Source of the DNA: an uncultured Lentisphaerota bacterium
Lineage (GTDB): Bacteria > Verrucomicrobiota > Lentisphaeria > Victivallales > GWF2-50-93
DNA length: 64,000 nt
Assembly (NCBI GenBank): GCA_903872565.1
Contig: CAIQLG010000012.1
Location: forward strand, 18,337 to 82,336
Reading direction: 5' to 3'
The notes beneath the pieces were generated by a model that saw only the letters and a list, made by a program, of their open reading frames with translations, ran no database searches and had not been told where the DNA came from. Positions 6,566 to 60,640 of the stretch are shown piece by piece. Position numbers and translations under genes: made by a program. The first letter of the stretch is position 1. Every line of letters starts with the position of its first letter.

Positions 6566-7885
6566 TTATTTCCAGTCATTTTCTCTGAAGAGAATGCTTC
6601 TGAATATTTTTTTTGTCAGCGAATGTCCCGATTTGAAGTCCTCGGGATTTGCCATGTAATGTGTTATGACCTTCGTCAGATCCAACATGGAGGCGAGGCG
6701 GTTGCCCGGGGTCTTGTCAAGCATTCTCGCCATTAGATCCTGTAGCCATTCCGGGATTTCCGGATTGATGCTTCTTGGTGCTGGAGGTTTTGCAGTTTTT
6801 ATTTTTTCCATGACCGCGTGAGCAGTTTTTCCCAAGAATGGCCTTTCTCCGGTAAATAGCTCATAGAGGAGGACTCCGAACGAGAAGATGTCTGACTTGG
6901 TGTCGCCTTGTGTTTCACCTCTAAGTATTTCCGGCGCCATGTAGGATGGCGATCCCCTGAGGGTGTCTGTCAAAGTGAGTGACGGGTCGAGAATTTTCGC
7001 TATGCCGAAATCTGTGATTTTCACGCGGATGTCTTCGGTCAGAAGGACATTTTCAGGCTTCAGGTCGCGGTGGAGTATCTTTTTTGAATGGATGTAGTCA
7101 AGTCCCGAAGCAATCTGAAGAGTCACTGAAAGTTTGTCCTCGTCTGTAAGATTTGCATTCTTTATGTAACTGGAGAGTGGTGCTCCGTGGACATATTCCA
7201 TGACGATATACGGCAGATCGTCGCCTTCAAAACCCCCCACGTCAAAAAGTTTGACCACATACGCATTGTCGAGAGACTTGAGGATCTCGGCTTCCCTGTT
7301 GAATCTTTTTTTTGCCAGCCTGTCAATTTCGGATCCTGAGTTGTTCAGAATCTTCATTGCGAAATAAGAGTCGTTTTTTTCAACGAGGAACACAGTTCCC
7401 GCGCCACCTGAGCCGATGGACTTGATCACGGAATATCCGTTTCTGATTTTTCCGACATTGCTGCCTTTCGTCTTTATCCGGCTCCCGTTTTTACGATCAA
7501 GGATAAGTCGGTTAATTTTTTTTTGCAGGTCATCGAGATTGAGTGGCTTGGGAAGATAGTCATAAGCTCCCTCCTTAATGGCTGTTACAGCCGCTTTGAA
7601 ATCAGGAACTCCTGTGACGAGGATGAAATCCGTCTTATTGTCCTTGCTTCTTACAGCTCTTAGAAGTTCGAGTCCAGACATATCCGGCATATTTATGTCG
7701 GAGATTACAAGATCGAAGTGCTTTGAGCTGAGTTTTTTCAGCGCCTCAGATGCCGATATGGCGGTATCAACCGCAAATCCGCTGTCGGCAAGGAAGAGTT
7801 CGAGCACCTGGAGGATTTCGTTCTGGTCATCCACAACAAGGATGGAAAGAAGAGGCAGGACTATTTTTTTTTTTTGCAGTCGCAT
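6566..7885 (-). CDS. Response-regulator receiver fused to Hanks-type Ser/Thr protein kinase (REC-STK 1)
   Basis: Receiver ILVVDDQNEIL...LVISDINMPDMSG...LPKPL. Kinase motifs GSGGAGTVF, AMK, HRDLKPENVLL, DFGIAK, SPSYMAPE. The start overlaps the stop of the upstream kinase across an A12 tract. Confidence 0.9.
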   Translation of the reverse strand: MRLQKKKIVLPLLSILVVDDQNEILQVLELFLADSGFAVDTAISASEALKKLSSKHFDLVISDINMPDMSGLELLRAVRSKDNKTDFILVTGVPDFKAAVTAIKEGAYDYLPKPLNLDDLQKKINRLILDRKNGSRIKTKGSNVGKIRNGYSVIKSIGSGGAGTVFLVEKNDSYFAMKILNNSGSEIDRLAKKRFNREAEILKSLDNAYVVKLFDVGGFEGDDLPYIVMEYVHGAPLSSYIKNANLTDEDKLSVTLQIASGLDYIHSKKILHRDLKPENVLLTEDIRVKITDFGIAKILDPSLTLTDTLRGSPSYMAPEILRGETQGDTKSDIFSFGVLLYELFTGERPFLGKTAHAVMEKIKTAKPPAPRSINPEIPEWLQDLMARMLDKTPGNRLASMLDLTKVITHYMANPEDFKSGHSLTKKIFRSILFRENDWK

Positions 7886-9863: not shown

Positions 9864-10550
9864 TCAGAAGGACATCGGAGCCAGTCCCGCAGCTTCGATC
9901 TTCATATTCTGTCCTTCCTTCCTTTTATCAGCCATGGTAGCGCTTAAGTCACGCCAGTGGGAAGCGCCCTGTTTTATCTCTTCCCTGCTCTGCATTCTTT
10001 TCGACCGGAGATTTTTCAGCATTATTTTCAGGTCCTGTATCCGTACCGCCGTTCCCTTCTCCAGGAGGCTCTGTAGCAATTCGGCTGCCATCTTGCGGTC
10101 GCGGTTGAAATCCGTCAGCATGTCACGAACCTCTTCTTCCCGTGATTTCTGGCTGGCCTGAATGTCCGTGATTATCTTTCGGAACTCATTTATTCTTTCC
10201 GATTCTCCTTCAAGGTGATCAGTCTTGTGCTTCTCGATGTTTTCCCTGATGGTCTTGGCGGCTTCCTTCTGTTCATCAAGATATGCCTTCAACAGATTTC
10301 TGGTTTCGCCTTCCCTTGATTCCTGTGATTCCAGTATCTCCTTCATCATAATATCAAAATCTTTTTTCCGCAGTGAGTCCTCCTTGGCCAGAGTTTCCCT
10401 CAGCTGTGTGCTCATGGCGCTTCGTTTTTCCCTGAAATCATCGAGCATCTGATGGGTATTGTCAATGATTGTGCAGACGGCCGAAATTCTGGATTCGTAG
10501 GAGGAGACTATTTCCTCCGTAAGTTTTCTCATATCTTCCGCATTGTTCAT
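9864..10550 (-). CDS. Coiled-coil protein of unknown function (paralog A), immediately downstream of gvpA genes
   Basis: 228 aa, rich in E/K/R/Q heptad-like sequence. AGGAG SD. N-terminus MNNAEDMRKLTEEIVSSYESRISAV matches its neighbour. Shared internal block YLDEQKEAAKTIR-N-I--HK-DH. Confidence 0.65.
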   Translation of the reverse strand: MNNAEDMRKLTEEIVSSYESRISAVCTIIDNTHQMLDDFREKRSAMSTQLRETLAKEDSLRKKDFDIMMKEILESQESREGETRNLLKAYLDEQKEAAKTIRENIEKHKTDHLEGESERINEFRKIITDIQASQKSREEEVRDMLTDFNRDRKMAAELLQSLLEKGTAVRIQDLKIMLKNLRSKRMQSREEIKQGASHWRDLSATMADKRKEGQNMKIEAAGLAPMSF

Positions 10551-10621
10551 AATGCCTACTCCTGTTTATAAAAAAATTGCCCGCTCTGTTTCGTGGGAAT
10601 TATCATTTTAAAAGCCCAGCG

Positions 10622-11347
10622 TCACGATCCCGTCTTCTCTATCTGTTTAAAATAATCCAGCATTATTATGGGAGATACTGTGAGAATTCTCCGCTGTGCC
10701 ATGTACATGTTCTGTCTGTCCGTGGCGATTAGTCCACGCCATTGGGATATCGTGTGCTTGAACACTTCCCACCATCCTTCGGAATGATGGCTCTTATGTC
10801 TTACCATTATTGTCGGACATTGGGTCTTGTCATCAGTTTCCTTCACCATGAAGATTTGAAGAAATTCAATTGTCATCTTATGTTTATTGTAGATAGTTTT
10901 CAGCATGTCGCGCAGTTCAATGTCGTGCTGTTTCTCGCTGACTCTCTGACTGGCATGGACATCGGCGATCCAGCTTCGGAATTCATTTATTCTTGCCGCA
11001 TCCACCTCAACGTGATCAATTTTGTGTCTTCCAATGTTTTTTCTGATAGTCTTAGCGGCTTCCTTCTGTTCATCGAGATAGATATTCAATAAAATTCTTG
11101 TTTCGTTTTCAATAGCCTCCTGGGGGCCAAGTATCTCCGTCATCATCCTGTCAAACTCTTTTTCGCAAAATGATTTTTCACGGGCGAACGTTTTCTTGAG
11201 CTGCATGCCCATAACACTGCGCTTTTCACTGAACCCGTCCAGTATCTGACGTGTATTGTCAACCATTGCACAGGCTGCCGAAACTCTGGATTCGCAGGAG
11301 GAGATTAATTCAGCCATCAGTTTTCTCATGTCTTCAGCATTGCTCAT
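10622..11347 (-). CDS. Coiled-coil protein of unknown function (paralog B)
   Basis: I trimmed the start to ATG 11347 (MSNAEDMRKLMAELISSCESRVSAA), which aligns with paralog A and has a GGGAG SD. The ORF-track start 11413 adds 22 unaligned residues. Confidence 0.65.
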   Translation of the reverse strand: MSNAEDMRKLMAELISSCESRVSAACAMVDNTRQILDGFSEKRSVMGMQLKKTFAREKSFCEKEFDRMMTEILGPQEAIENETRILLNIYLDEQKEAAKTIRKNIGRHKIDHVEVDAARINEFRSWIADVHASQRVSEKQHDIELRDMLKTIYNKHKMTIEFLQIFMVKETDDKTQCPTIMVRHKSHHSEGWWEVFKHTISQWRGLIATDRQNMYMAQRRILTVSPIIMLDYFKQIEKTGS

Positions 11348-11445
11348 AAAGATTGCTCCCGTTCTTAGGATATGGATTACTGGCGAACCATGCTTGGCAA
11401 CCGTCGGCTGCAAGGACGACTCGGCAGGTACCCATGTTTTGGTTT

Positions 11446-11652
11446 TTAGGCCGCTGTAGCTGTCAGACCGATAGCTTCAGCATACTTCAGATACGTTTCG
11501 ACTGACGCGACCACAACTCTGGCTTCAACTGCCAGAAGTTCTATCCCGACGAGGGATACCCTGACCCATGCGTCAACCACGATACCTTTGTCAAGTATGC
11601 GGTCCACAACTTCAACAAGACTCGAACTGCCGATTGTTTTTTCCACTGCCAT
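11446..11652 (-). CDS. gvpA: Gas vesicle structural protein GvpA (copy 1)
   Basis: The 68-aa product [68 protein letters not shown] is a textbook GvpA sequence. AGGAG SD. Confidence 0.95.
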
Positions 11653-11747
11653 TGTAGTAACTCCTGTTTTTGATTCCGATCCCCAGTTTTATTTTAGAGG
11701 ACAAGAACCGGTTTATTAATTCGACTCAACTAAACGATTTAACTTAC

Positions 11748-11954
11748 TTACGCTGCCGTAGCTGTCAGACCGATAGCTTCAGCATACTTCAGATACGTTT
11801 CGACCGACGCGACCACTACTCTAGCTTCAACTGCGAGAAGCTCGATACCAACCAGTGATACCCTGACCCATGCGTCAACAACGATACCCTTGTCCAATAT
11901 GCGGTCAACAACTTCGACCAGACTGGAACTTCCGATTGTTTTCTCCACTGCCAT
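11748..11954 (-). CDS. gvpA: Gas vesicle structural protein GvpA (copy 2, product identical to copy 1)
   Basis: Same 68-aa product. The ORF-track start 11963 is a GTG inside the SD GGGGGTGA, so ATG 11954 is preferred. Confidence 0.95.
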
Positions 11955-12017: not shown

Positions 12018-12033
12018 AGCATGAAGGATGCCA
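12018..12033 (-). promoter_or_regulatory. Candidate sigma54 (-24/-12) promoter upstream of gvpA copy 2
   Basis: The minus strand reads TGGCATCCTTCATGCT (GG-N10-GC spacing), about 65 nt upstream of ATG 11954. Near-identical elements occur at three other sites in the window. Confidence 0.5.
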
Positions 12034-12192
12034 AAGGCTATAGCTGACTTTTAAAATAATTTCTATCATTTTAGTTATAAACGAGTTACATCTGCATTAA
12101 AAAAATAGACTGCTGGTAAATCAGATTTTATTGCATCGTTTTTTTGGGAATAATATGTGACAAAAACGGACAGAATTGAACGGAATTGCCAC

Positions 12193-12430
12193 AGTGGGGA
12201 ATGGGGAAGGGGAAAGAATGTGAGTTATGGGAAGCATGGGAGTTATTTTTTTGAGACCTTTGAGGGCAGGGGAAATATAGCTCTCATAATTCAATGTTGC
12301 TAAGTTAAGCCAAGTAACGCGGGATACCACCCCGCGACTTTCCTCGGGGAGATTCCCCGAGTTACTCGAATTCAGGCTTAACTTAGCAACATTCCTCTCA
12401 TAATTCACATAATTTCCATAGCTCCCATAA
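12193..12430. repeat. Inverted arrays of 9-nt GGGA(A/G)TTAT-type units, interrupted by a palindromic insertion
   Basis: 12193..12250 reads GTGGGGAATGGGGAAGGGGAAAGAATGTGAGTTATGGGAAGCATGGGAGTTAT. The reverse complement of 12385..12430 reads GGGAGCTATGGAAATTATGTGAATTATGAGAGG. The same unit type is seen at 18257..18305 and 3444..3487. Confidence 0.65.
12293..12393. repeat. 101-bp MITE-like palindromic element with 19-bp perfect terminal inverted repeats
   Basis: AATGTTGCTAAGTTAAGCC (12293..12311) is the exact reverse complement of 12375..12393. Two internal GC hairpins (CGCGGG..CCCGCG, CTCGGGG..CCCCGAG). Flanked by the direct repeat CTCTCATAATTC at 12281..12292 and 12395..12406. Confidence 0.7.
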
Positions 12431-12440
12431 ACGGTGATCA

Positions 12441-13769
12441 TCAGCTCCAAGTTTTGTGGAAGATTTCCTTAATGAAACTTTTCTTGTAGTTATTTTCGTA
12501 TTTGGTTTTTTCATACCTGTCGAGTTCCTGAATGATTTCGGAGACACTGCCATATCTGTTGTCAGGTAATTTCTCGAGCATTTTGCCGACGATATCACGG
12601 AGCATCATCGGCAACTTGTTGTTTAATTTCATTGGGTCTTCAGGTTTTGACTTCATGATGCTCTCTTTTATTCCGGAGAGGCCTGCGCCCGCAAAAGGCC
12701 TTTTCCCTGCGAGGATTTCATAGCTTATCACACCGAGGGAGAAAATGTCGGCTCTCTCGTCGATCTTGTTTATATTGTCGAAGCTTTCAGGCGCCATGTA
12801 TGTCGGCGAACCTAGCATTGCATTGGTCATCGTCAGTTCGGAGTCAAACACGCGAGCGACTCCGAAGTCTATGAGTTTGCATTCATCTTCTCTGGTTATA
12901 ATGACATTCTGAGGTTTGATGTCCCTGTGAAGTACCCCATAACTATGAACAATTTGAAGAGCTGATGCAATCTTTCTCATGATTGAAACAGCCTGTCCAG
13001 TCTGTATATGAGTTGATTTCATGTACTCATCGAGGGTGTTTCCTGGAAGATACTCCATTATTATGTAAGGTATCTCTCCCTGTTCCGAGAGTCCGTATTC
13101 AACTAATTTTATGATATTGGGATGGCTGATGCTTGAAATGATTTTTGCTTCTCTGAAAAATCTTTTGACTTTTTCAATCGAGAATGTTTTCGATCCGAAC
13201 ACCTTCATTGCATAATACACTTTTTCCTTTTCAACCAGGAAGACTTTGCAGATGCTTCCCGAACCTATTTCCTTAATGACCTTATAACCCGCAGGCGGGT
13301 AAAGAGTAATTCCGGCAAGAGTTTCCTTATTGTAAAAAAGAGCTTTGTCAAGGATGTCCTTGAATTTCTTGAGGTTAAGTGGTTTAGTGAGGACATCGAG
13401 GGCGCCTCCTATGAGTGCATCAAGGGCGGTGTCAGGAGCATTCTCAAGATCCTTCGCGTCGCAGACTATGATCATTTTTGTGCTCTGCGAGTTTTCTGTG
13501 CAGAAATGCAGAAGATCCATGGCTGTTGATTTCCCCTGGACGTTGTAATCGCAGAAGACAAGCGCGTAGTAGAAGTTCTTGAATAGCTTTAAGGCCTTTT
13601 CCGATCTGTCGCACGTCTGAATTTCATATCCGAGATGCCCCAGCTCCCTTTCAAGAAGCTGTACGATAAGATCCTCGTTTCCAATAACGAGTATCCTGGG
13701 GACAAAAGGGTCGCCCTTGTTTTCCAGTATCCTTGTCTTGACATTCGGATCGTCTTCTTCGCTGATCAT
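12441..13769 (-). CDS. Degenerate receiver domain fused to Hanks-type Ser/Thr protein kinase (REC-STK 2)
   Basis: Kinase motifs GSGSICKVF, AMK, HRDIKPQNVII, DFGVAR, SPTYMAPE. The N-terminal receiver-like fold keeps the phospho-acceptor position (LVFCDYN) and LTKPL, but the acidic pair is replaced (VIGNED). Confidence 0.85.
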   Translation of the reverse strand: MISEEDDPNVKTRILENKGDPFVPRILVIGNEDLIVQLLERELGHLGYEIQTCDRSEKALKLFKNFYYALVFCDYNVQGKSTAMDLLHFCTENSQSTKMIIVCDAKDLENAPDTALDALIGGALDVLTKPLNLKKFKDILDKALFYNKETLAGITLYPPAGYKVIKEIGSGSICKVFLVEKEKVYYAMKVFGSKTFSIEKVKRFFREAKIISSISHPNIIKLVEYGLSEQGEIPYIIMEYLPGNTLDEYMKSTHIQTGQAVSIMRKIASALQIVHSYGVLHRDIKPQNVIITREDECKLIDFGVARVFDSELTMTNAMLGSPTYMAPESFDNINKIDERADIFSLGVISYEILAGKRPFAGAGLSGIKESIMKSKPEDPMKLNNKLPMMLRDIVGKMLEKLPDNRYGSVSEIIQELDRYEKTKYENNYKKSFIKEIFHKTWS

Positions 13770-13831
13770 TTAGTGTCTTTATTTTAAAGTTCTATGTCTT
13801 GAGCGTATGCAAAAGTTAAATTTGTGGTTCA

Positions 13832-13963
13832 GGAAGTCAGGAGTCAGAATTCAGAATGAAAACAACTCAATTGCTTCTCAATTATTTTCTCTTTTGTTTT
13901 TGATATTATTCTGACTACTGTCTCCTGTCTTCTGACTTCTCTTGGGTTGCGGGCAAAGCCCGC
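13832..13963. repeat. Intergenic imperfect palindrome plus short GC hairpin between two REC-STK genes
   Basis: GGAAGTCAGGAGTCAGAAT (13832..13850) pairs imperfectly with ATTCTGACTACTGTCTCCTGTCTTCTGACTTC (13908..13939). Hairpin GCGGGC-aaa-GCCCGC at 13949..13963 sits just 3' of the stop at 13971 and has no U-tract. Confidence 0.5.
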
Positions 13964-13970
13964 CTATATA

Positions 13971-15293
13971 TCAACTCCATGGATTATCAATGAGCAGCAT
14001 GCTTTTCAGGAATTTTGATGTTATTGTATCATTCACAGGCGCCTTGTCATCCTCGTTTTTCTGATGGAATTCTATTGATTCAATGATTTTTCCGGCCGTC
14101 GGATAACGATTCTCCGGATTTTTCGTCATCATCTTTGCGATGGTATTCTGAAGCCAGGAGGGAATATCAGCATTGATTTTTTTTGGTTCGAGGGGCTTCC
14201 TTGTCTTTATCGCCTCCATTACCTGGAATACATTATCGCCTGGAAAGGCGCGCCGGGATGTCACGAGTTCATAGCAGAGCGATCCGAGAGAAAATATGTC
14301 GGACCTATTGTCTAGTGTCTTGGCGGAATCGAAGCTTTCGGGAGCCATATAATGGGGAGATCCCATCACATCATCCATCATCGTGAGCGATGATTCCTGC
14401 GTTTTAGAGATTCCGAAGTCGCTTATCTTCACCTGCGAGTTTTGTGTTATCATTATGTTGTCGGGCTTGATATCTCTGTGGATGAAGCCCAGACTGTGGA
14501 TATAATCAAGCACCGATGCAAGTTGCTTGATTATGTGAATGCGCAACTTGATGTCCATCGCAGTGTTTGCAATATAGTCCGAAAGCCGAGATCCATCTAT
14601 ATATTCCATGATTATGAAAGGAGTGCCGACATCCGGCAGGATACCATACTTATATACCTTGACAATGTTCCGATGATCCATTTCCTCCAAGATTTTAAAT
14701 TCGCGGAGAAATCTTTTCACGGATATTTCATGCTTTTCAGGGGAGTCTTTCTTCTTCATTATCTTCATCGCGTAACTGGCGCAATTTTTCTCGACTAGCA
14801 GAACTAGGCCGCTATTCCCTGAGCCAAGTGATTTCAATATCTTGTATTTTCCCGTCTGGAAAAAAACGGAGTCAAGGATCTGCTCCTCGGAGCTTTTCAC
14901 CTCGCTTCCCTGTTCCGCAAGTGCCGAATTTATTTTAGCGGCCAGATTATTCAGATCGATAGGCTTGGCTATATAATCTAAAGCGCCTTCCTTGATCGAA
15001 CTGACTGCATCTTTAAGATCCGGATGCCCAGTCATCAATATTATATGCATCGCAGGGCAGTGTTTTCTGCAGTAAGTAAGGAATTCAAGCCCGTTCATCC
15101 CCGCCATCCGGACATCAACCAGTGCAAGGCTAAATACGGTGTCTGCCATAAGTCCAAGCGCATCACTGCAATTTCCCGCAGTTGAAACCGAAAAAGATTC
15201 TGAAAGTGCGGTGTTCAGGAATTCACGAACATTATCCTCGTCATCAACAACGAGGATATTTTTCTTGACATTTGTTATCTCAGGATATAACAT
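13971..15293 (-). CDS. Response-regulator receiver fused to Hanks-type Ser/Thr protein kinase (REC-STK 3)
   Basis: Receiver ILVVDDEDNVREF...LALVDVRMAGMNG...IAKPI. Kinase GSGNSGLVL, AMK, HRDIKPDNIMI, DFGISK, SPHYMAPE. GAGGGAG SD. Confidence 0.9.
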   Translation of the reverse strand: MLYPEITNVKKNILVVDDEDNVREFLNTALSESFSVSTAGNCSDALGLMADTVFSLALVDVRMAGMNGLEFLTYCRKHCPAMHIILMTGHPDLKDAVSSIKEGALDYIAKPIDLNNLAAKINSALAEQGSEVKSSEEQILDSVFFQTGKYKILKSLGSGNSGLVLLVEKNCASYAMKIMKKKDSPEKHEISVKRFLREFKILEEMDHRNIVKVYKYGILPDVGTPFIIMEYIDGSRLSDYIANTAMDIKLRIHIIKQLASVLDYIHSLGFIHRDIKPDNIMITQNSQVKISDFGISKTQESSLTMMDDVMGSPHYMAPESFDSAKTLDNRSDIFSLGSLCYELVTSRRAFPGDNVFQVMEAIKTRKPLEPKKINADIPSWLQNTIAKMMTKNPENRYPTAGKIIESIEFHQKNEDDKAPVNDTITSKFLKSMLLIDNPWS

Positions 15294-15660: not shown

Positions 15661-16413
15661 TTAACTTGCTGCAATTTTCAGATTGACAAAATTGAACGGA
15701 GGCACCTCACACACATATTTAAGTTTTATTCTCTTACCGTATTTTGTGTCAATATCGTTGACTTTCCTGTAAAACGCCTCCTCCTTGTCCACTTCCACAA
15801 GGAACGCGGCATTTATAATCATCCTCACGCCGAAAGCATTGTTGATTTTCACTTCTACGGCGAGAGGGGAAAGAATCCTCAATATCTCCTTCTTTAGAAT
15901 TTCAACTTCCGCCCGCAGCGCGGCCTCGACCATTTCCCCTATCTTCATCCGCTGTGGATAGGTTTTCTCTGGAGGCTTGGCAATTATAGACATTTTTAAT
16001 TTATTGATGTCCTTATGCTTTTCCAGGATATAGCTGTATATGGCTTCCTCAATGAAAACCGCTTTCACTCCCAGCTCTTTTTTATTGTCGAGCTTTTTCA
16101 GCAGTTCTTTGAATTTGACATTTTCTTTCCTCAATATTTCCAGTATCTCGACATCGGTTGCGATTATGCCGAATCTGACAGGAAGCACGCCTGCAAATTC
16201 CTTCATCACTACATCGATCACCTTTGCGTGAGCCAGCATATTTTCCCGGCTGGCGGTAATTTTGGCGATGGGATGACTGCTTGCGACCATTCTCATATCC
16301 TCATGGCCGATGGTTGAAACCTCATCTCCCCTGCCACCCACCCCGATTGGACCGAAACTTCTATCATGGATTGAAGGGATAATGCAATAAATATACTTTC
16401 CGTCCTGTGCCAT
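15661..16413 (-). CDS. gvpF: Gas vesicle assembly protein, GvpF/GvpL family
   Basis: 250 aa. The N-terminus MAQDGKYIYCIIPS...FGPIGVGG...V..I....MRMVAS and overall layout are typical of the GvpL_GvpF family. Located in a gvpA context. Confidence 0.85.
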   Translation of the reverse strand: MAQDGKYIYCIIPSIHDRSFGPIGVGGRGDEVSTIGHEDMRMVASSHPIAKITASRENMLAHAKVIDVVMKEFAGVLPVRFGIIATDVEILEILRKENVKFKELLKKLDNKKELGVKAVFIEEAIYSYILEKHKDINKLKMSIIAKPPEKTYPQRMKIGEMVEAALRAEVEILKKEILRILSPLAVEVKINNAFGVRMIINAAFLVEVDKEEAFYRKVNDIDTKYGKRIKLKYVCEVPPFNFVNLKIAAS

Positions 16414-16538: not shown

Positions 16539-17255
16539 TCAGCAGACAATCACTACGCTGTTGACAGAACAGAACACATTTGGCTCGAACCTTATGGCAT
16601 TAGGATCCGGTATCCATTGGCCGTCAACAATGAACTTGTATTGGTATTCTCCGGGTGCAAGTACCATCAAGGCCTGGAATTCCCTTCCCTGTCTTGTCAT
16701 CGGCTCCGGGATCCAGTTGTTAAAATCGCCAGCCAGGCAGACCTCTCCAGCTTCCGATTCGGCAGGCCAACTGAATTTGTGAGTTTTCCCAGTCTTTTTT
16801 TTCGTCTCGTAGCCGGACTGACATTTGCCCACGGAGCACTCCTTAGCCGTCGCCTTCTTCTGCGTCTTTTTCTTCCCCATCATTCCAACCTCCTTTTCCA
16901 CTTTAGCTGTTTGTATCATATTCTCGGATAATGACATAATCTTGTTAGATTTGACATCTTCTCCTATTTCATCACATAGAAGTCTCTTGAAAAACATCTT
17001 GATGGTGCTGATAGCCCTGGATGCGTCGGCACCAATCGCGGAGATGGTGAATATGGCACCTCCCGGGATGCCAAGCGTGATGATGTCCAGCAGGCTCTTG
17101 GCATCCGCCTTTCTATCATTGTATTCGATAAACACATCGGATTCGAACTGTCTTGACACCTTCACAAGCAGTGAAACAGGACGCATATGCATGGCGACAA
17201 TCTTGTCAAGGATTACCTCAATACTACATGTCGGGCAATTATACGGCAAGCCCAT
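16539..17255 (-). CDS. Fusion of HPr-like phosphocarrier domain and AMPK-beta/CBM48-type glycogen-binding domain
   Basis: I trimmed the start to ATG 17255 (strong GGAAGGAGAG SD). HPr-like VAMHMRPVSLLVK (His15 position) and NDRKADAKSLLDIITLG (Ser46 position). The C-terminus FSWPAESEAGEVCLAGDFNNWIPEPMTRQGREFQALMVLAPGEYQYKFIVDGQWIPDPNA resembles the AMPK beta-subunit glycogen-binding module. Lys-rich linker. Confidence 0.75.
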   Translation of the reverse strand: MGLPYNCPTCSIEVILDKIVAMHMRPVSLLVKVSRQFESDVFIEYNDRKADAKSLLDIITLGIPGGAIFTISAIGADASRAISTIKMFFKRLLCDEIGEDVKSNKIMSLSENMIQTAKVEKEVGMMGKKKTQKKATAKECSVGKCQSGYETKKKTGKTHKFSWPAESEAGEVCLAGDFNNWIPEPMTRQGREFQALMVLAPGEYQYKFIVDGQWIPDPNAIRFEPNVFCSVNSVVIVC

Positions 17256-17356
17256 CGTTACTCTCCTTCCAGTTAAATGATTTCTCTTTAAATCAGATTT
17301 TATTTCCGTTGCCCTCGGATGGCCATAAGCCTGCGGGATTTCTGGCAGATTGGTAT

Positions 17357-17713
17357 CTATATGCCACCCAATGAACATTTGGCATGTCCGGCCTCAAGAA
17401 GCGCCTCCCAAATTTTCATCATTTCAGGGGGGAGGCATTTGCTCATGATTCTTTCGGGATCCACCGGATCAATGAAATGAGCAAGTTCGTGTGCAATAAC
17501 AGGCACCAATCCAAGCCGATATTTAGGTTCAAGAATGCTACTATTGCTGTAATGCAGGACTACCTTGGTAGTTTTTCCAAAGAGAGCACGTCCCATTACT
17601 CCCTCGAAAGAATCATCGTACACGACTTCAAAGGAGATACCCTGAAGTTCCGGGAAATATTTATTCCGCACGGACTCCATAAAAGCAACAACTTCGAGTT
17701 CATTATCAGTCAC
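17357..17713 (-). CDS. Small putative zinc metallopeptidase-like protein (HExxH)
   Basis: 118 aa, GTG start with GAGAGGTGA SD. Single VIAHELAHFIDP motif. No further family recognised. Confidence 0.55.
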   Translation of the reverse strand: MTDNELEVVAFMESVRNKYFPELQGISFEVVYDDSFEGVMGRALFGKTTKVVLHYSNSSILEPKYRLGLVPVIAHELAHFIDPVDPERIMSKCLPPEMMKIWEALLEAGHAKCSLGGI

Positions 17714-17818
17714 TTAATCACCTCTCATCCGGTCTTAATGCGAGTATGCAAAACACCCCAGACCCACACTTTGCGCAGGCCTAAGGATTGATTTTTTCAG
17801 ATGGCCGCAGGGTTGGTT

Positions 17819-17977
17819 TCAGTCCTCTGCTGTTGCGAGTGCCACAGCTTCAGCATACTCCAGATAGATTTCGACCGAGGGCACAACAATTCTGGCCTCA
17901 ACCTCGATACCTTTGTCCATCACGCGATCCATAGCTTCGACCAGGCTTGGACTTCCGCTTGTTTTTTCCGCTGTCAT
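17819..17977 (-). CDS. 52-aa GvpA-like protein lacking the central beta-hairpin (in-frame 16-residue gap relative to GvpA)
   Basis: Below the ORF-track length cutoff; I translated it by hand: [52 protein letters not shown]. It aligns with GvpA residues 1-24 and 41-68. SD GGGGAATACC and a sigma54-like element lie upstream. Confidence 0.6.
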
Positions 17978-18074
17978 GGTATTCCCCTTGTTTTACAATT
18001 CCCTTTTTTTCAGAACAGAAGCACCATCTTTTCAGATTTTTAATGCTTTATTCTTCTTTTCCAGCATTATATAT

Positions 18075-18090
18075 AGCAGGATTGATGCCA
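18075..18090 (-). promoter_or_regulatory. Candidate sigma54 (-24/-12) promoter upstream of the short gvpA-like ORF
   Basis: The minus strand reads TGGCATCAATCCTGCT, preceded by CAGCTATA as at the gvpA copy 2 element. About 100 nt upstream of ATG 17977. Confidence 0.5.
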
Positions 18091-18256
18091 TAAGTTATAG
18101 CTGGTGTTTTCATAAGTTCCTATCTTTATTAATATAAACATCTTGCATATATACAAAAAAATAATATGTCAAAATATACGGTGTCTGAAGGCTTCCTATA
18201 TGGTGATTATATGGGACAAATCCGGGCAGAATGGTTGGATTTGCCACAGAAAAGAA

Positions 18257-18393
18257 GGGAGGGGAAAGAATGGGAATTATGGGAGGAACGGGAATTATGG
18301 GAATTATAATTTTGTGTCCCTAGATTTGCTTGGCGGAAGTCTTTCCGCACAAGCAAATCTATAAGTTTCCACAATTGGGAGAATTGTGGAAAC
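18257..18393. repeat. G3-N6 periodic array followed by a 41-nt nested hairpin and a 12-bp-stem hairpin
   Basis: GGGAGGGGAAAGAATGGGAATTATGGGAGGAACGGGAATTATGGG (18257..18301). TAGATTTGCTTG-GCGGAAGTCTTTCCGC-ACAAGCAAATCTA (18321..18361). GTTTCCACAATT-gggag-AATTGTGGAAAC (18365..18393). Confidence 0.75.
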
Positions 18394-18551
18394 GTCATCT
18401 GAATATTTTTCTATGCATGAACCGCATACCCGCATCCTTTTTACTCAAAAGATGGCGCGGAATGAAAAATGCGGCGGCATGGAGCAAGTGTCCAAGCTCC
18501 ATGTCAATGTCAGAATAAATATGTTTTATGGCCGGGATGCCGTCCGTGATC

Positions 18552-19073
18552 CTATGCGGTCAGCGGCAGACCTTTATATGTCCATCTGTACGGTTTCGCC
18601 ATAGTCCTGTTGAAATAGGAAATGAACATTTCCATCTTATCCCCGAGATCGCCTTCATGCCCGGTCAATTCCGCAACCATTCGGACAAGAGTTTCGGACA
18701 TATGGGTGTTGAGCTGGTCGCTGATGAATATCCATTGGTCTTTCCGCCTGTCTCCTATTGTAGAGGCTATATGCTCTGCGAAATCCTGTTCGTTCCGCGT
18801 CTCGCCAATATGATGACGGACTATTTTTCCTGTGGCTACTTCAAAAGAGGGTATCAAGGAAAGTGTGCCATGCCGCATGTATTCGAACTCGATCTTCTCG
18901 GGATGACCGGCTATCATCGGCTTCGTCGGCGCAACCCGCTCCAGCGCCTGGATGCCGGTCTTTTCATCTGTCGAGATCAAATGCGTGCCAGCATCATGAA
19001 GCTCGGAGGCATGTGAATAAAGGCCGCAGATCTCCGTCTCGCGGTCATGGCCGAGTTCGTCAAATGGGCAGGC
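18552..19073 (-). mobile_element. IS630-family transposase relic (pseudogene: N-terminal HTH region missing, internal deletion removing the end of the DDE domain)
   Basis: ...FDELGHDRETEICGLYSH...LISTDEKTGIQALER...EFEYMRHGTLSL...FISDQLNTHMSE... jumps directly to ...FISYFNRTMAKPYRWTYKG. The open frame extends upstream of the ORF-track TTG start to a stop at 19074..19076. No inverted repeats of an intact IS were recognised. Confidence 0.75.
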
Positions 19074-19171
19074 TTACGGAGCAGGGAAACAAAAAAAAAA
19101 CTGTTTTTTTAAGGAGATGAGCTCGAGTGGTTCATCGAAGATAGGAACACAATGATCCTCAGAAGGAAAAA

Positions 19172-19249
19172 GTTAAGGAGAATGGGGAATTTGGAATGTG
19201 ACTCTCAGTAGATAATCTCGTGCGGAAAGACTTCCGCCGAGATTATCTA
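19172..19249. repeat. Second copy of the 41-nt nested hairpin family with GGGGAATTTGGAATGTGA leader
   Basis: TAGATAATCTCG-TGCGGAAAGACTTCCGC-CGAGATTATCTA (19209..19249). The inner GCGGAAAGACTTCCGC is the reverse complement of the inner hairpin at 18332..18347. Confidence 0.7.
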
Positions 19250-19488
19250 GGGAATTGTATTTTCGCGTTTTTTGCGTGTTCAGCGGGAAAAATATGGTAC
19301 CAAGTTTCCGCCGCGGCGGATTAAGTCCAAATTTCCTGACTCGTGGCTTCAATGACTGGCTCTCCTGTGTCCGTTTCGGAAAAACGGACATACTGTGAAT
19401 ACTTACCAGTTCCTGCGAATCAGGAGTTCCAAAATTATTTTTAAAAGAAAATTAGTTTTGCGTCTTGAAAAATTATATTTGCCGAACA

Positions 19489-49510: not shown

Positions 49511-49526
49511 TGGCATCCTTCCTGCT
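49511..49526 (+). promoter_or_regulatory. Candidate sigma54 (-24/-12) promoter upstream of the secreted peptidase gene
   Basis: TGGCATCCTTCCTGCT on the + strand, one mismatch from the gvpA copy 2 element. About 88 nt upstream of ATG 49614. Confidence 0.5.
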
Positions 49527-49613: not shown

Positions 49614-51029
49614 ATGAAATGGAAAATGTTTTTTGCAGTCCTGTCAGTCATGTATGTCGTCTCATCGGTTCAGGCTCAGGAAAATGACCTGCCATATGGC
49701 GTAATGAGACCTGATGCGAAAACCCTCAAAAAATGGAATGAGAACTTTCTCCGGCAGCCACTTGCGGAAGTCTCTTCCACCCGTGCAAGCAAACGTGGGA
49801 ATTTTTCACTTCTCGGCCACTTGAATTTTGATCCTGTCCTGCGCGATCAGGGGCGTACCGGGACCTGCTGGATATGGGCTGGCACAGGTTGCCTTTCCAT
49901 CGCTCTTGATATCCAGAAGTCTGTCGCGTCAGAGCTCATGAACGGCCTTTCTGTCCAGTTTCTGGCATCGAACGAGGCGCTTGTTGGTGCCACCTACGAA
50001 TCAGGCGGCGATATGCCGCAGATCATTGATTTTTACTCACGTGTCGGATATTCCATCGCCTGGACAAACACCAGCGCCGAATGGCAGGACGGTGACGGAG
50101 TACAGAATTGCCCGAGCTCATGGATCCACACCAATCCGCGCTATCCGATCAGCGCAATAAGCTTGTCGGCAGTTTCAACCACTGGCGTTGATCAGGCGAC
50201 GGCCATAGCAAACATCAAAGACGCCCTGAACCAGGACAATCCGATATCTTTGGCATTTTATATGCCGACCGATAAGGACTGGCTTGGCTTTTCCACATTT
50301 TGGAGCAATGACCCCGAGACCACGATCATAAATCTGGATAAATATCCTGTCGCCCCCTGGGATAATGGCGCAGGACACGGTGTCGTGTGCGTCGGCTATA
50401 ATGATGACGCACCGGAACTCGAAAACCAGTACTGGATAATCCTCAACAGCTGGGGAGATGCCGACGGGAAACGCCCGGACGGATGCTTCCGACTCTCGAT
50501 GAATCTCGACTATTCAAAACAGCTCACCCAGGGAAGTTCAACTTTTTACGCCTACCAATGGAGCATATTCAATGTCAAATTTTCAGATGTCATGAACAAG
50601 CGTTTTGACAGCGTGTCATTCAATTTCAACAATGCCAGGACGGACGCGGACACGTGCACAATATCGAAATACACCTTCTCGGGTTCAGCTCCCACGGCCA
50701 TATCGAATGCGGTTCTGCGCATGAACGGGTATGACATCACTTGCAATAGCAGCACCGGAACGTGGAGCGCAAATGGAAAAATCTTCAAATTCAAAAGCAA
50801 GCCCAATGGCGGTGCGAAGGTTGAGATTACAGTTGACGGCAATAAAAATTTCTGGAGCTCAAAGGTTACTAAAAGCGACATCAACAGATATGTGAACTAT
50901 TACGATGCGCTTGATTTTGACCTTTCGACTTCTCCCAACGAATCGGCACCGGTGGTTCTCGGCAATTCATGCACCCTGATGTTTGACGATCTCTGCCCTA
51001 AAGCCTCCGGAAAGGCAAAGAAAAAATAA
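49614..51029 (+). CDS. Secreted papain-like (C1-family-like) cysteine peptidase with C-terminal beta-rich domain
   Basis: Signal peptide MKWKMFFAVLSVMYVVSSVQA. Catalytic-Cys context DQGRTGTCWIWAG, His context GAGHGVVCVGY, YWIILNSWG. Confidence 0.65.
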   Translation: MKWKMFFAVLSVMYVVSSVQAQENDLPYGVMRPDAKTLKKWNENFLRQPLAEVSSTRASKRGNFSLLGHLNFDPVLRDQGRTGTCWIWAGTGCLSIALDIQKSVASELMNGLSVQFLASNEALVGATYESGGDMPQIIDFYSRVGYSIAWTNTSAEWQDGDGVQNCPSSWIHTNPRYPISAISLSAVSTTGVDQATAIANIKDALNQDNPISLAFYMPTDKDWLGFSTFWSNDPETTIINLDKYPVAPWDNGAGHGVVCVGYNDDAPELENQYWIILNSWGDADGKRPDGCFRLSMNLDYSKQLTQGSSTFYAYQWSIFNVKFSDVMNKRFDSVSFNFNNARTDADTCTISKYTFSGSAPTAISNAVLRMNGYDITCNSSTGTWSANGKIFKFKSKPNGGAKVEITVDGNKNFWSSKVTKSDINRYVNYYDALDFDLSTSPNESAPVVLGNSCTLMFDDLCPKASGKAKKK

Positions 51030-59438: not shown

Positions 59439-60215
59439 CTACTTCATCAGTTTTATGTTGATTCCGCTTATTGCTCCCTGGCTGTCCGCTGTCATGTTCG
59501 TCACCTCCCAGGTCTGTGCCTTCTGAACGCCCACTGGCGCGATGGAAAGGTAATAGCCATTGGCACTGAATTCCTTGAGCTTCTTCGACAGTTTAAGGTC
59601 GTATATTTGAACGGTGAGGGTCTGTTTATTCTCCGCATCGGGAACTGAGCTCGTCGAAATAATCAGATCACCACCCAGGAGTTCGGCACTTATCTGAGTG
59701 TCAAACTGGAGCTGGCCGACCTTCTCAAAACCTTTTTTCGCGAGCTTACAGCTGGTCAGGCAATATTTACCGCCCACGCTGGTCATGAAAAATGCATGAT
59801 TCTTCCCATAGGCCAGAAGTTGCGGGATTGCGATTTCGTTTTGAAGATCGACTGTGCCTGTGACAATTGTCTTGGAATCCTTGCCGAGGACTGTCATGGT
59901 TGTTACGCCGAGATAGGCGCCGTCCACGTTCGAGAGAAGGTAGTCGACGACGAGCAGTGTCTTATTGTCGCAGGCCATGTCTGCAACAGGCATTTCTCCA
60001 AGAACGAGATTCCATTCCGCGATTACACGCGAAGCGTTTGTGGCATCTTTACTTTCCGCAGGCGCATCCCAGGGGAAACAGATCAATCCGGCAATGGATG
60101 CAGCAGCCGCGAATTTCTGGAACATTTTCCTGTGCTGCACAATCCCTTCGCAATGTATCATCCGGTCAACAACTCCGAGCAAGCTTGAGCATCCGACTGT
60201 TTTTTCAGTTGCCAT
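59439..60215 (-). CDS. Hypothetical exported protein whose ORF begins with a GvpA N-terminal module (alternative start at 60125 gives a plain signal peptide)
   Basis: The first 30 codons, MATEKTVGCSSLLGVVDRMIHCEGIVQHRK, parallel Gvp[26 protein letters not shown]. Then MFQKFAAAASIAGLICFPWDAPAES looks like a signal peptide. SD AGAGG serves ATG 60215; only AGGA at short spacing serves ATG 60125. Confidence 0.6.
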   Translation of the reverse strand: MATEKTVGCSSLLGVVDRMIHCEGIVQHRKMFQKFAAAASIAGLICFPWDAPAESKDATNASRVIAEWNLVLGEMPVADMACDNKTLLVVDYLLSNVDGAYLGVTTMTVLGKDSKTIVTGTVDLQNEIAIPQLLAYGKNHAFFMTSVGGKYCLTSCKLAKKGFEKVGQLQFDTQISAELLGGDLIISTSSVPDAENKQTLTVQIYDLKLSKKLKEFSANGYYLSIAPVGVQKAQTWEVTNMTADSQGAISGINIKLMK

Positions 60216-60290: not shown

Positions 60291-60306
60291 AGCAGGAGGG
60301 ATGCCC
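60291..60306 (-). promoter_or_regulatory. Candidate sigma54 (-24/-12) promoter upstream of the gvpA-module ORF / giant protein operon
   Basis: The minus strand reads GGGCATCCCTCCTGCT (GG-N10-GC). About 75 nt upstream of ATG 60215. Confidence 0.45.
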
Positions 60307-60405
60307 AAAGACTGAGACGATATTTTATAATTTCTTTAACATCTTAATGATTAATATGTTAGATATAAAATAAAACATGAAATTAATCTGAATAAATTTA
60401 TGCCC

Positions 60406-60480
60406 TAGACAATCTCGGCGGAAGCCTCTCCGCACGAGATCATCTGCTGGAATCACATTTCAAACTCCAAATTTCGCAAT
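60406..60480. repeat. Third (inverted, imperfect) copy of the 41-nt nested hairpin family
   Basis: TAGACAATCTCG-GCGGAAGCCTCTCCGC-ACGAGATCATCT followed by TCACATTTCAAACTCCAAATTTCGC. The latter resembles the reverse complement of the 19172..19200 leader. Confidence 0.55.
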
Positions 60481-60564: not shown

Positions 60565-60640
60565 GCCCGGGTAGCTCAGGGGATAGAGCAGCAGTTTCCT
60601 AAACTGTTGGTCGGAGGTTCGATTCCTCTCCCGGGTACCA
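60565..60640 (+). tRNA. tRNA-Arg (anticodon CCT), CCA encoded
   Basis: Hand-folded cloverleaf. Acceptor GCCCGGG/CCCGGGT (G1-U72 wobble), D arm GCTC-aggggata-GAGC. Anticodon arm GCAGT-ttCCTaa-ACTGT, T arm GGAGG-ttcgatt-CCTCT. 76 nt. Confidence 0.9.

What the first reader, a model, noticed from the sequence alone, without database searches (positions are those of the whole stretch)
17819..17977. Unannotated 52-aa GvpA derivative lacking the beta-hairpin wall segment
Hand translation gives [52 protein letters not shown]. It aligns with GvpA residues 1-24 and 41-68 and lacks exactly the 16 residues [16 protein letters not shown]. In published GvpA models (alpha-beta-beta-alpha fold) those residues form most of the hydrophobic beta-hairpin lining the gas space. 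The gap is in frame, and the ORF keeps a start, a stop and an SD. It also has its own sigma54-like promoter with the same CAGCTATA upstream box as gvpA. That argues for a maintained helix-only GvpA variant (cap, nucleator, chaperone decoy or assembly inhibitor) rather than decay. GvpJ/M/S-type minor GvpA homologs normally retain the hairpin.
Basis: partly seen in the sequence, partly recalled or inferred. Interest (0 to 1): 0.7.

Follow-up and report, generated by a model that had tools for sequence, protein, structure and literature searches.

The report
Conserved hairpin-less GvpA mini-protein gene
A 52-residue copy of the gas-vesicle wall protein GvpA that has lost its wall-forming beta-hairpin is kept as a working gene in a small group of uncultured lake bacteria, and probably acts as a soluble GvpA look-alike that tunes gas-vesicle assembly rather than as wall material.

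Summary
Window 17819-17977(-) encodes exactly the 52-aa peptide reported. It matches GvpA residues 1-25 and 42-68 with one clean 16-residue gap (PDB GvpA 8GBS, E=2e-12). It has an AAGGGG Shine-Dalgarno and a sigma54-type -24/-12 element (TGGCATCAATCCTGCT) like the one before gvpA.

It is not a decaying copy. Six distinct variants in three clades (50-94% aa identity, 51-52 aa) all have the same gap, the same promoter element and the same downstream neighbour. That neighbour is a 118-aa HExxH gene, followed by a second gvpF wherever the contig reaches that far. Between clades dN/dS is 0.19-0.48, and 0.11-0.39 in the helix core. Only this reading frame is open in all six.

The deletion matches loss of 48 nt between two GTTGA repeats that are still present in both full gvpA copies.

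The product is acidic and far less hydrophobic than GvpA. AlphaFold predicts helix-linker-helix at low confidence. It fails the curated Pfam and NCBIfam GvpA cut-offs.

Best reading, inferred and not shown: a non-polymerising GvpA mimic, co-regulated with gvpA, that engages proteins binding GvpA helix alpha1, most likely the co-transcribed GvpF paralogue.

It is a new variant of a known kind, confined to a narrow lineage, with untested function.

The parts
17819..17977 (-). gvpA-derived 52-aa ORF (N-coil, helix alpha1, remnant of beta2, helix alpha2). It lacks 16 residues: beta1, the turn and the first part of beta2.
   Evidence: Six orthologous variants under purifying selection. Only this frame is open in all six.
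17984..17989 (-). Shine-Dalgarno AAGGGG, 6 nt before the ATG
   Evidence: AAGGA or AAGGAG sits at the same place in clades B and C.
18075..18090 (-). sigma54-type -24/-12 element TGGCATCAATCCTGCT (GG-N10-GC)
   Evidence: 3 matches against 0.27 expected. Conserved in all six variants as TGGCATCAAT(C/A)CTGCT or TGGCATCGATCTTGCT.
18139..18150 (-). ATATGCAAGATG box about 55 nt upstream of -24. Candidate activator or IHF site. Weak inference.
   Evidence: Conserved in clade A, present in clade B L010 and partly in L017. A similar AATGCAGATG lies upstream of the gvpA promoter.
17746..17786 (-). terminator-like hairpin plus T-run directly after the stop codon (possible partial terminator)
   Evidence: A hairpin and T-run at the same position in clade B (only 1 compensatory pair).
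17357..17713 (-). 118-aa HExxH ORF, always immediately downstream of the short gene. Probable small zincin-like metallopeptidase.
   Evidence: Invariant H75-E-x-x-H79. AF2 pLDDT 88.6. Top Foldseek hits are all HExxH zincins, but E>=0.025. More distant homologues lie in phage-like contigs.
16539..17378 (-). HPr + AMPK-type carbohydrate-binding-module fusion. Present in this position only in clade A.
   Evidence: Absent between the 118-aa gene and gvpF in clades B and C.
15661..16413 (-). gvpF2: a second GvpF paralogue, in the same orientation as the short gene and following it in all three clades
   Evidence: Pfam GvpL_GvpF E=2.5e-54. 72% identical in clades B and C, but only 62-63% to the main-cluster GvpF that precedes gvpG.
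11449..11954 (-). two tandem full-length gvpA genes (68 aa each), the parental type. GTTGA repeats 48 nt apart flank the segment missing from the short gene.
   Evidence: 23 nt differences, 0 aa differences between the copies; GTTGA at nt 75 and 123 of both.
12018..12033 (-). gvpA sigma54-type promoter TGGCATCCTTCATGCT
18317..19253 (.). IS630-type remnant with 45-nt terminal inverted repeats, inserted upstream of the short gene's promoter. Polymorphic among strains and not part of the functional unit.
   Evidence: DDE_3. A full IS in one strain contig and none in another.

Best explanation
The ORF is a real, selectively maintained small gene that arose from gvpA. A 48-nt in-frame deletion between two GTTGA direct repeats removed strand beta1, the turn and the first part of beta2. 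What remains is the N-terminal coil, helix alpha1 (A-M-D-R-x-M-D-x-G), a 10-residue linker and helix alpha2 (P-S-x-E-I-Y-L-x-Y-A-E). Without the hydrophobic hairpin the product cannot polymerise into wall ribs, and it is an acidic, much less hydrophobic protein. It keeps a gvpA-type sigma54 promoter, so it is made when gvpA is made. In every lineage it heads a module of short gene, 118-aa HExxH protein and second GvpF. Inferred mechanism: it acts as a soluble GvpA mimic that occupies proteins recognising GvpA's N-terminus and alpha1. The most likely target is the co-transcribed GvpF2. In this way it would buffer, time or limit delivery of GvpA to the growing vesicle. Shown here: the sequence anatomy, its origin from gvpA, conservation, purifying selection, promoter conservation and synteny. 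Inferred: solubility, binding to GvpF2, and the direction of any effect on assembly.
For: The gene is real and maintained. Six variants fall in three clades: window, L007/L008, L009; L010, L017; L022. All are 51-52 aa with the same gap and share the derived residues P33 and I37. NG86 dN/dS between clades is 0.19-0.48 at dS 0.5-1.0, and 0.11-0.39 for core codons 15-45. L010 against L017 shows 14 synonymous and 5 non-synonymous changes; none of 20,000 neutral simulations did as well. Only this frame is open in all six. SD and -24/-12 are conserved. It derives from GvpA and not from GvpJ/S: 52% identity against 31-45%, and only GvpA shares MxxEKT and YLKYAE. GTTGA repeats 48 nt apart sit in both gvpA copies, with a single GTTGA at the junction in the short gene. 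It is not a wall protein: 16 of about 27 hairpin residues are absent, GRAVY is 0.14-0.28 against 0.87 for GvpA, net charge is -3.5 to -7.5, and AF2 gives H10-22, coil, H35-50 (low confidence). It evolves much faster than GvpA; the two gvpA copies differ at 23 nt and 0 aa. Synteny with the 118-aa gene and gvpF2 holds in all clades, and in relatives the module lies next to the main gvp cluster and its sigma54 activator. Literature: GvpF is the primary partner of GvpA. The isolated fragment A1-22 (coil plus alpha1) is enough to bind GvpF, with R15, K19 and G20 important (PMC9372576; PMC11445434). The equivalents of R and G are invariant in the short protein.
Against: No expression, binding or phenotype data exist. 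All known members fall in a single 50%-identity cluster of one narrow lineage, so the comparative depth is small. Within the window's own clade dN/dS is about 0.93 (3 synonymous and 9 non-synonymous changes; uninformative, but compatible with relaxed constraint). The window allele also carries two charge changes at otherwise conserved positions, V25E and K40E. The lysine equivalent to Halobacterium K19, reported as important for GvpF binding, is D or E in clades B and C. The AF2 model has pLDDT 60. The conserved N-terminal MxxEKT, which in GvpA contacts the neighbouring rib, fits a vesicle-surface role equally well.
Confidence: 0.5

Rival explanations
1. Minor structural or capping component. 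The short protein docks on an exposed GvpA rib through its retained N-terminal coil and alpha1, at tips, the seam or the growing end. Having no hairpin, it ends or marks rib growth (cap, terminator or nucleator).
For: The first six residues (M-T/S-x-E/K-K/T-T) stay GvpA-like in all clades while residues 7-14 drift. In GvpA the N-terminus binds across the hairpin and C-terminus of the adjacent rib, and alpha1 bridges ribs (PMC9994262). It is co-regulated with gvpA by the same promoter type.
Against: Alpha2 normally packs on the molecule's own hairpin, which is absent here. The hydrophobic lumen-facing surface is largely gone (GRAVY 0.14-0.28). The fast evolution is unlike wall proteins. Known tip-associated paralogues (GvpJ/S) keep the hairpin (PMC11445434).
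Confidence: 0.2
2. Functional pair with the adjacent 118-aa HExxH zincin-like protein. The GvpA-like peptide would be its substrate mimic, inhibitor or targeting subunit, for example directing or restraining a protease that acts on GvpA or other Gvp proteins.
For: The two genes are adjacent in every variant, about 105 nt apart. HExxH and a Cys are invariant. The confident AF2 model has zincins as its top structural neighbours.
Against: Foldseek E-values are not significant (>=0.025). There is no Pfam, PHROG or NCBIfam family. Homologues of the 118-aa protein in phage-like contigs have unrelated upstream partners, so the pairing is a lineage-specific juxtaposition. No catalytic activity is shown.
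Confidence: 0.12
3. The peptide itself does not matter. The ORF survives as a translated leader that carries the gvpA-type promoter, 5' UTR and a partial terminator, and controls read-through into the 118-aa/gvpF2/kinase operon.
For: A terminator-like hairpin and T-run follow the stop, and their position is conserved. The same promoter cassette, with or without the first 22 GvpA codons, has been reused elsewhere in the window (60138-60215 and 49511-49526).
Against: A leader role does not predict amino-acid-level purifying selection over the two helices, nor invariant derived residues P33 and I37. The hairpin has almost no covariation support.
Confidence: 0.08
4. Recent pseudogene: a gvpA duplicate crippled by a deletion and drifting.
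For: It fails the curated family cut-offs. dN/dS is about 0.93 within the window's clade, with non-conservative V25E and K40E in the window allele. An IS remnant lies next to it.
Against: The same deletion is shared by three clades separated by dS 0.5-1.0, with dN/dS 0.19-0.48. There are no stops or frameshifts. The one length change is a whole codon. SD and promoter are conserved, whereas flanking intergenic DNA carries indels.
Confidence: 0.05

Closest known systems
GvpA, major gas-vesicle wall protein (Pfam PF00741; structures 7R1C, 8GBS)
   Same: Clear homology over the N-coil, alpha1, the end of beta2 and alpha2. It has the same type of sigma54 promoter as the resident gvpA. The SD, the small monocistronic-looking gene and the following hairpin are also shared.
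   Different: It lacks 16 residues of the beta-hairpin that forms the rib core and the gas-facing surface. It falls below the Pfam and NCBIfam cut-offs. It is far less hydrophobic and evolves quickly. Its derived residues (A15, M16, M20, P33, I37) are fixed across its own family.
GvpJ / GvpM / GvpS minor GvpA paralogues
   Same: They are small GvpA-related accessory proteins encoded in gvp clusters and are thought to act in nucleation or at tips (PMC11445434).
   Different: They retain alpha1-beta1-beta2, as do this lineage's own 72-, 74- and 106-aa copies, and they diverge in alpha2 and the C-terminus. The short protein has the opposite pattern: hairpin lost, alpha2 kept. It is closer to GvpA than to them.
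Experimental GvpA fragments (A1-22, A44-76) used in Halobacterium split-GFP studies
   Same: The short protein is in effect a natural fusion of the A1-22-like and A44-76-like parts. A1-22 alone binds GvpF strongly and also contacts GvpC, GvpN and GvpO (PMC9372576).
   Different: Those fragments are laboratory constructs from an archaeon. No natural gene of this form is reported in the papers searched. The K19 equivalent is not conserved in clades B and C.
Truncated-paralogue 'microprotein' decoys (concept from plant and animal regulators; my own knowledge, not tested here)
   Same: A short paralogue keeps an interaction surface, loses the functional domain, and is co-regulated with the full-length protein.
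   Different: The analogy is purely conceptual. No binding or dominant-negative effect is shown for this protein.

Membership tests
GvpA structural protein family (PF00741 / NCBIfam NF006874) | Significant sequence similarity to GvpA | tested here: met
   tblastn E=1e-12. PDB phmmer 8GBS E=2e-12.
GvpA structural protein family (PF00741 / NCBIfam NF006874) | Score at or above the curated family cut-offs | tested here: not met
   Pfam 19.1 bits against gathering score 25. NCBIfam 49.5 against 100. The resident gvpA scores 131.6.
GvpA structural protein family (PF00741 / NCBIfam NF006874) | coil-alpha1-beta1-beta2-alpha2 fold with a hydrophobic beta-hairpin forming the rib | tested here: not met
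   A 16-residue gap removes beta1, the turn and the start of beta2. AF2 gives helix-coil-helix at low confidence. GRAVY is 0.14-0.28 against 0.87.
GvpA structural protein family (PF00741 / NCBIfam NF006874) | Physical presence in the gas-vesicle wall | not testable with these tools
   Needs proteomics of purified vesicles.
GvpJ/GvpM/GvpS accessory paralogues | Retained alpha1-beta-hairpin core with a divergent C-terminal part | tested here: not met
   The lineage's J/S-like proteins keep the hairpin. The short protein aligns to them only over 31-36 residues at 31-45% identity, and better to GvpA.
sigma54-dependent promoter | -24 GG and -12 GC elements with correct spacing upstream of the gene | tested here: met
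   TGGCATCAATCCTGCT at 18075-18090. The pattern occurs 3 times against 0.27 expected. Conserved in all six variants.
sigma54-dependent promoter | A cognate bacterial enhancer-binding protein and a mapped transcription start | tested here: inconclusive
   A REC-sigma54-activator gene lies in the adjoining gvp cluster of related contigs but not in this window. No transcript data are available.
Pseudogene | Frame disruption or neutral substitution pattern among relatives | tested here: not met
   No stops or frameshifts in six variants. Inter-clade dN/dS is 0.19-0.48. Within clade A it is about 0.93, but on only 12 substitutions.
Zincin-type metallopeptidase (for the 118-aa neighbour) | HExxH motif in a helix following a small beta-sheet, with structural similarity to known zincins | tested here: inconclusive
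   HExxH is invariant in 22 homologues. The AF2 topology is alpha-beta3-alpha(HExxH)-alpha-alpha. The top Foldseek hits (BlaR1, 3C37, ZMPSTE24, lethal factor) have E>=0.025. There is no family hit.

The most novel reading that the evidence does not exclude
This would be a natural, dedicated 'anti-GvpA' or GvpA-mimic regulator. A soluble alpha1/alpha2-only paralogue, made from the same sigma54 promoter type as gvpA, would titrate the GvpF-type chaperone (and possibly GvpN or GvpG), or cap ribs. It would thereby set gas-vesicle number, size or timing. Through its operon partners (HExxH protein, HPr-CBM, REC-Ser/Thr kinases) it could couple assembly to cellular signalling. That would be the first protein-level modulator of GvpA polymerisation derived from GvpA itself, and a ready-made tool for controlling engineered acoustic reporter vesicles.
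Probability: 0.3. Interest if true: 0.7.

Novelty: new variant of a known kind. Interest (0 to 1): 0.5.

Why it matters
How GvpA is kept soluble, delivered and inserted into the growing shell is the main open question in gas-vesicle biogenesis. Current models rest on laboratory fragments showing that the N-terminus and alpha1 of GvpA is the handle recognised by GvpF and other accessory proteins. Here evolution has made and kept such a fragment fused to alpha2, under the gvpA-type promoter and next to an extra GvpF. If it binds GvpF or caps ribs, it gives a direct, testable handle on the chaperoning and insertion step. It would also offer a genetically encoded brake or tuner for heterologous gas-vesicle expression, where GvpA proteotoxicity is a practical problem (PMC12848028 abstract). 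If it does nothing measurable, it is still a clean example of a microhomology deletion creating a new small gene that annotation pipelines cannot name.

Tried and rejected
1. Word-indexed homologue search with the 52-aa query found only three clusters, all 52 aa.
2. Exhaustive phmmer over 1.84 billion representatives found no other stand-alone hairpin-less GvpA outside this one 50%-identity cluster. The other hits are ordinary GvpA proteins matched in two stretches, plus an unrelated-looking set of multi-repeat proteins (see the passing notes).
3. The genome-collection scan returned only a full-length Terriglobales GvpA-like gene, L015, with its hairpin present. It is not a member.
The rerun with a shallow alignment gave pLDDT 60, so no fold search was attempted on it.
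5. A Foldseek search with the 118-aa model gave only non-significant zincin hits. PHROGs, Pfam and NCBIfam gave nothing.
6. The CAGCTATA box was rejected as a shared regulatory element because it is not conserved even in L007 and L009.
7. Rfam found no RNA family at the locus; its only hit is a tRNA at 60565-60637.
8. The consensus folds of the 5' UTR and 3' region have essentially no covariation support, so no RNA model was built.
9. I considered whether loss of the main gvp cluster in the window strain explains relaxed constraint. This is not supported, because the identical 52-aa allele also sits beside an intact main cluster on another contig.
10. Literature searches found no report of a natural hairpin-less GvpA.

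Full report
**Observation**

tblastn with three reference GvpA proteins finds four things in the window:
- two tandem full-length gvpA genes (11751-11954 and 11449-11652, 68 aa, 84% identical to Anabaena GvpA);
- the short ORF (E=1e-12), aligned to GvpA 1-24 and 41-63 with one 16-residue gap;
- a third, 26-residue N-terminal GvpA fragment at 60138-60215.

phmmer against PDB sequences returns the solved GvpA chains 8GBS (E=2e-12) and 7R1C (E=1e-9), each in two stretches, and nothing else meaningful. AAGGGG lies 6 nt before the ATG.

TGGCATCAATCCTGCT at 18075-18090 has the GG-N10-GC geometry of a sigma54 promoter. The pattern TGGCAT-N6-TGCT occurs three times in 64 kb against 0.27 expected, and one of those sites is the gvpA promoter at 12018-12033.

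Three corrections:
- The CAGCTATA box is shared in the window but already differs in the nearest relatives.
- About ten residues of beta2 remain.
- gvpF is two genes away in this window.

**Is it maintained or decaying?**

The exact protein occurs on about 21 contigs from several metagenomes. I obtained five further distinct variants with DNA:
- L007/L008 (94% aa identity) and L009 (83%), which with the window form clade A;
- L010 and L017 (50-58%), clade B, reached through the downstream neighbour and a metagenome scan;
- L022 (58%, 51 aa), clade C, from an NCBI MAG reached through cluster membership of the neighbour.

All six variants share:
- the same hairpin gap (G-[IV]-[VE]-[VLI]-E-A-R-I);
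- the derived residues A15, M20, P33 and I37, which differ from GvpA;
- an SD;
- the -24/-12 element (TGGCATCAAT[C/A]CTGCT or TGGCATCGATCTTGCT).

The single length difference is one whole codon in the N-terminal coil.

Nei-Gojobori estimates between clades give dS 0.5-1.0 and dN/dS 0.19-0.48. For codons 15-45 (alpha1 to alpha2) the ratio is 0.11-0.39. L010 against L017 has 14 synonymous and 5 non-synonymous differences, and none of 20,000 neutral simulations matched that. Only the annotated frame is open in all six sequences. The flanking intergenic DNA shows indels over the same distances.

The neighbouring 118-aa gene has dN/dS of about 0.09 at the same dS, so the short gene is less constrained but clearly constrained. 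Within clade A the ratio is about 0.93 on only 12 substitutions, which is uninformative. The window allele does carry V25E and K40E at otherwise conserved positions.

The identical allele also lies next to an intact main gvp cluster on another contig. The local IS remnant therefore does not indicate a dying locus.

**Origin**

The short family is closer to GvpA than to this lineage's GvpJ/S-like proteins (52% against 31-45% identity). Only GvpA shares its MxxEKT start and YLKYAE helix. In both resident gvpA copies the pentamer GTTGA occurs at nt 75 (Val26-Asp27) and nt 123 (Val42-Glu43), exactly 48 nt apart. The short gene has one GTTGA at the junction. Slippage or recombination between these microhomologies gives precisely the ancestral GIV-VEARIVV junction seen in L007. 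This step is inference from sequence.

**What the product looks like**

By the published fold (coil-alpha1-beta1-beta2-alpha2), the hairpin forms the rib core and the gas-facing surface. Alpha2 folds back on the hairpin, alpha1 bridges ribs, and the N-terminus binds the neighbouring rib (PMC9994262). The deletion removes beta1, the turn and the first part of beta2.

The remaining protein differs from GvpA as follows:

| Property | Short protein | GvpA |
|---|---|---|
| Net charge | -3.5 to -7.5 | -3.5 |
| GRAVY | 0.14-0.28 | 0.87 |

AlphaFold2 predicts H10-22, coil 23-34 and H35-50, but at mean pLDDT 60. The protein fails Pfam (19.1 against 25 bits) and NCBIfam GvpA (49.5 against 100), so pipelines leave it unnamed. 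It cannot be filed as a structural GvpA.

**Context**

In every variant the short gene is followed about 105 nt later by a 118-aa ORF with an invariant HExxH. Its AF2 model is confident, at pLDDT 88.6. Its best structural neighbours are all zincin peptidases, but at non-significant E-values. More distant homologues of that ORF sit in phage-like contigs with unrelated upstream genes.

Next comes a second GvpF paralogue. It follows directly in clades B and C, and after an HPr-CBM fusion in clade A. This GvpF is 72% identical among clades but only 62-63% identical to the main-cluster GvpF that precedes gvpG. Two REC-Ser/Thr kinases follow, and in the window then the two gvpA genes.

In relatives the module lies directly downstream of the main gvp cluster, which contains gvpN, J/S-like genes, HSP20, ArsA, a CDC48-like ATPase, several gvpF/L, gvpG, gvpK and a REC-sigma54 activator. 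Names attached to homologues point to Lentisphaerota-like MAGs. This taxonomic placement is an inference.

A terminator-like hairpin with a T-run follows the stop codon, and its position is conserved. Covariation support is negligible.

**Mechanism**

Published interaction work identifies GvpF as the primary partner of GvpA. It shows that the isolated fragment A1-22 (coil plus alpha1) suffices for strong GvpF binding, with R15, K19 and G20 important, and that it also contacts GvpC, GvpN and GvpO (PMC9372576). A later study proposes that GvpF chaperones GvpA before hand-over to GvpG (PMC11445434).

The short protein keeps this handle. D-R and G are invariant, while the K equivalent is K, D or E. 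It has lost the polymerising element, it uses the gvpA promoter type, and it always travels with an extra GvpF.

The best-supported reading is therefore a soluble, non-polymerising GvpA mimic. It would engage alpha1-binding accessory proteins, most likely GvpF2, and so modulate GvpA handling. I put about 0.9 on 'real maintained gene', and about 0.35-0.4 on the specific GvpF-binding modulator mechanism.

Rival readings:
- a rib-edge cap that uses the conserved N-terminus (0.2);
- a functional pair with the HExxH protein (0.12);
- a translated leader for the downstream operon (0.08);
- a pseudogene (0.05).

**Novelty and score**

No natural hairpin-less GvpA was found in the literature searched. 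The exhaustive protein search found the family only as one 50%-identity cluster. It is a new variant of a known kind.

It is interesting to gas-vesicle specialists and potentially useful as a tool. However, it is confined to a narrow uncultured lineage and has no functional data. Interest 0.5.

Noticed in passing
window 59439-60215 (-), promoter about 60295-60312: A 258-aa ORF begins with 22 GvpA-like residues (MATEKTVGCSSLLGVVDRMI) behind its own sigma54-like element (GGGCATCCCTCCTGCT). It then continues into an unrelated, signal/TM-like and family-less body, just upstream of a 1922-aa secreted giant protein. It looks like the gvpA promoter plus 5' end co-opted to drive other genes.
   Followed up: partly
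window 49511-49526 (+) and ORF 49614-51029: This is the third exact TGGCAT-N6-TGCT site. Its flanks are homologous to the promoter at about 60300. It drives a secreted papain-family cysteine protease. This suggests a sigma54 regulon built by promoter-cassette duplication that reaches beyond gas-vesicle genes.
   Followed up: partly
window 18317-19253; solo copy 60417-60435: An IS630-type (DDE_3) remnant is bounded by 45-nt inverted repeats. The full-length IS plus the main gvp cluster lies upstream in another strain's contig, and a third strain has no IS. In the window the far side of the IS runs into BNR/sialidase-like genes, which indicates a strain rearrangement or an assembly join at the repeat. 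A solo terminal-repeat copy sits next to a tRNA at 60565-60637.
   Followed up: partly
proteins P0025, P0026, P0027, P0030, P0032, P0039, P0050, P0078, P0139, P0149: These are multi-repeat proteins of 165-460 aa or more, built from several copies of the GvpA alpha1 motif (DRILDKGI) and alpha2 motif ([16 protein letters not shown]). The hydrophobic hairpin is replaced by short polar or Cys-rich inserts. Two such genes lie in tandem on one contig. The sources give them no name, and the papers searched give no description.
   Followed up: partly
window 17357-17713 (-): The 118-aa ORF with invariant HExxH and a C-terminal Cys has a confident zincin-like AF2 model but no Pfam, PHROG or NCBIfam family. 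Homologues at 71% identity or less are in phage-like contigs next to DnaB_2, HNH and endonuclease VII genes. It is apparently a phage-derived gene captured into the gvp regulon.
   Followed up: partly
window 11449-11954 (-): The two tandem gvpA copies differ at 23 of 204 nt and at no amino acid. This is extreme purifying selection on a duplicated wall-protein gene.
   Followed up: yes
L019, L020, L022 and contigs: A Volactin-family (PF25216) gene, a CDC48-like double AAA ATPase, ArsA, HSP20 and a GvpL-DnaJ fusion are embedded in the gvp clusters of the relatives. This accessory set is unusual for bacterial gas-vesicle loci.
   Followed up: no
window 16539-17378 (-); 12441-15293 (-); 6566-7885 (-): An HPr domain fused to an AMPK-type carbohydrate-binding module (clade A only) and three receiver-domain Ser/Thr kinases sit among the gas-vesicle genes. 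This hints at phosphorylation-based control of buoyancy.
   Followed up: no
window 9864-11413 (-) and 12121-12450 (-): The family-less ORFs flanking the gvpA pair (263, 228 and 109 aa) are conserved in position in related contigs. They may be lineage-specific GvpC-like or accessory proteins.
   Followed up: no
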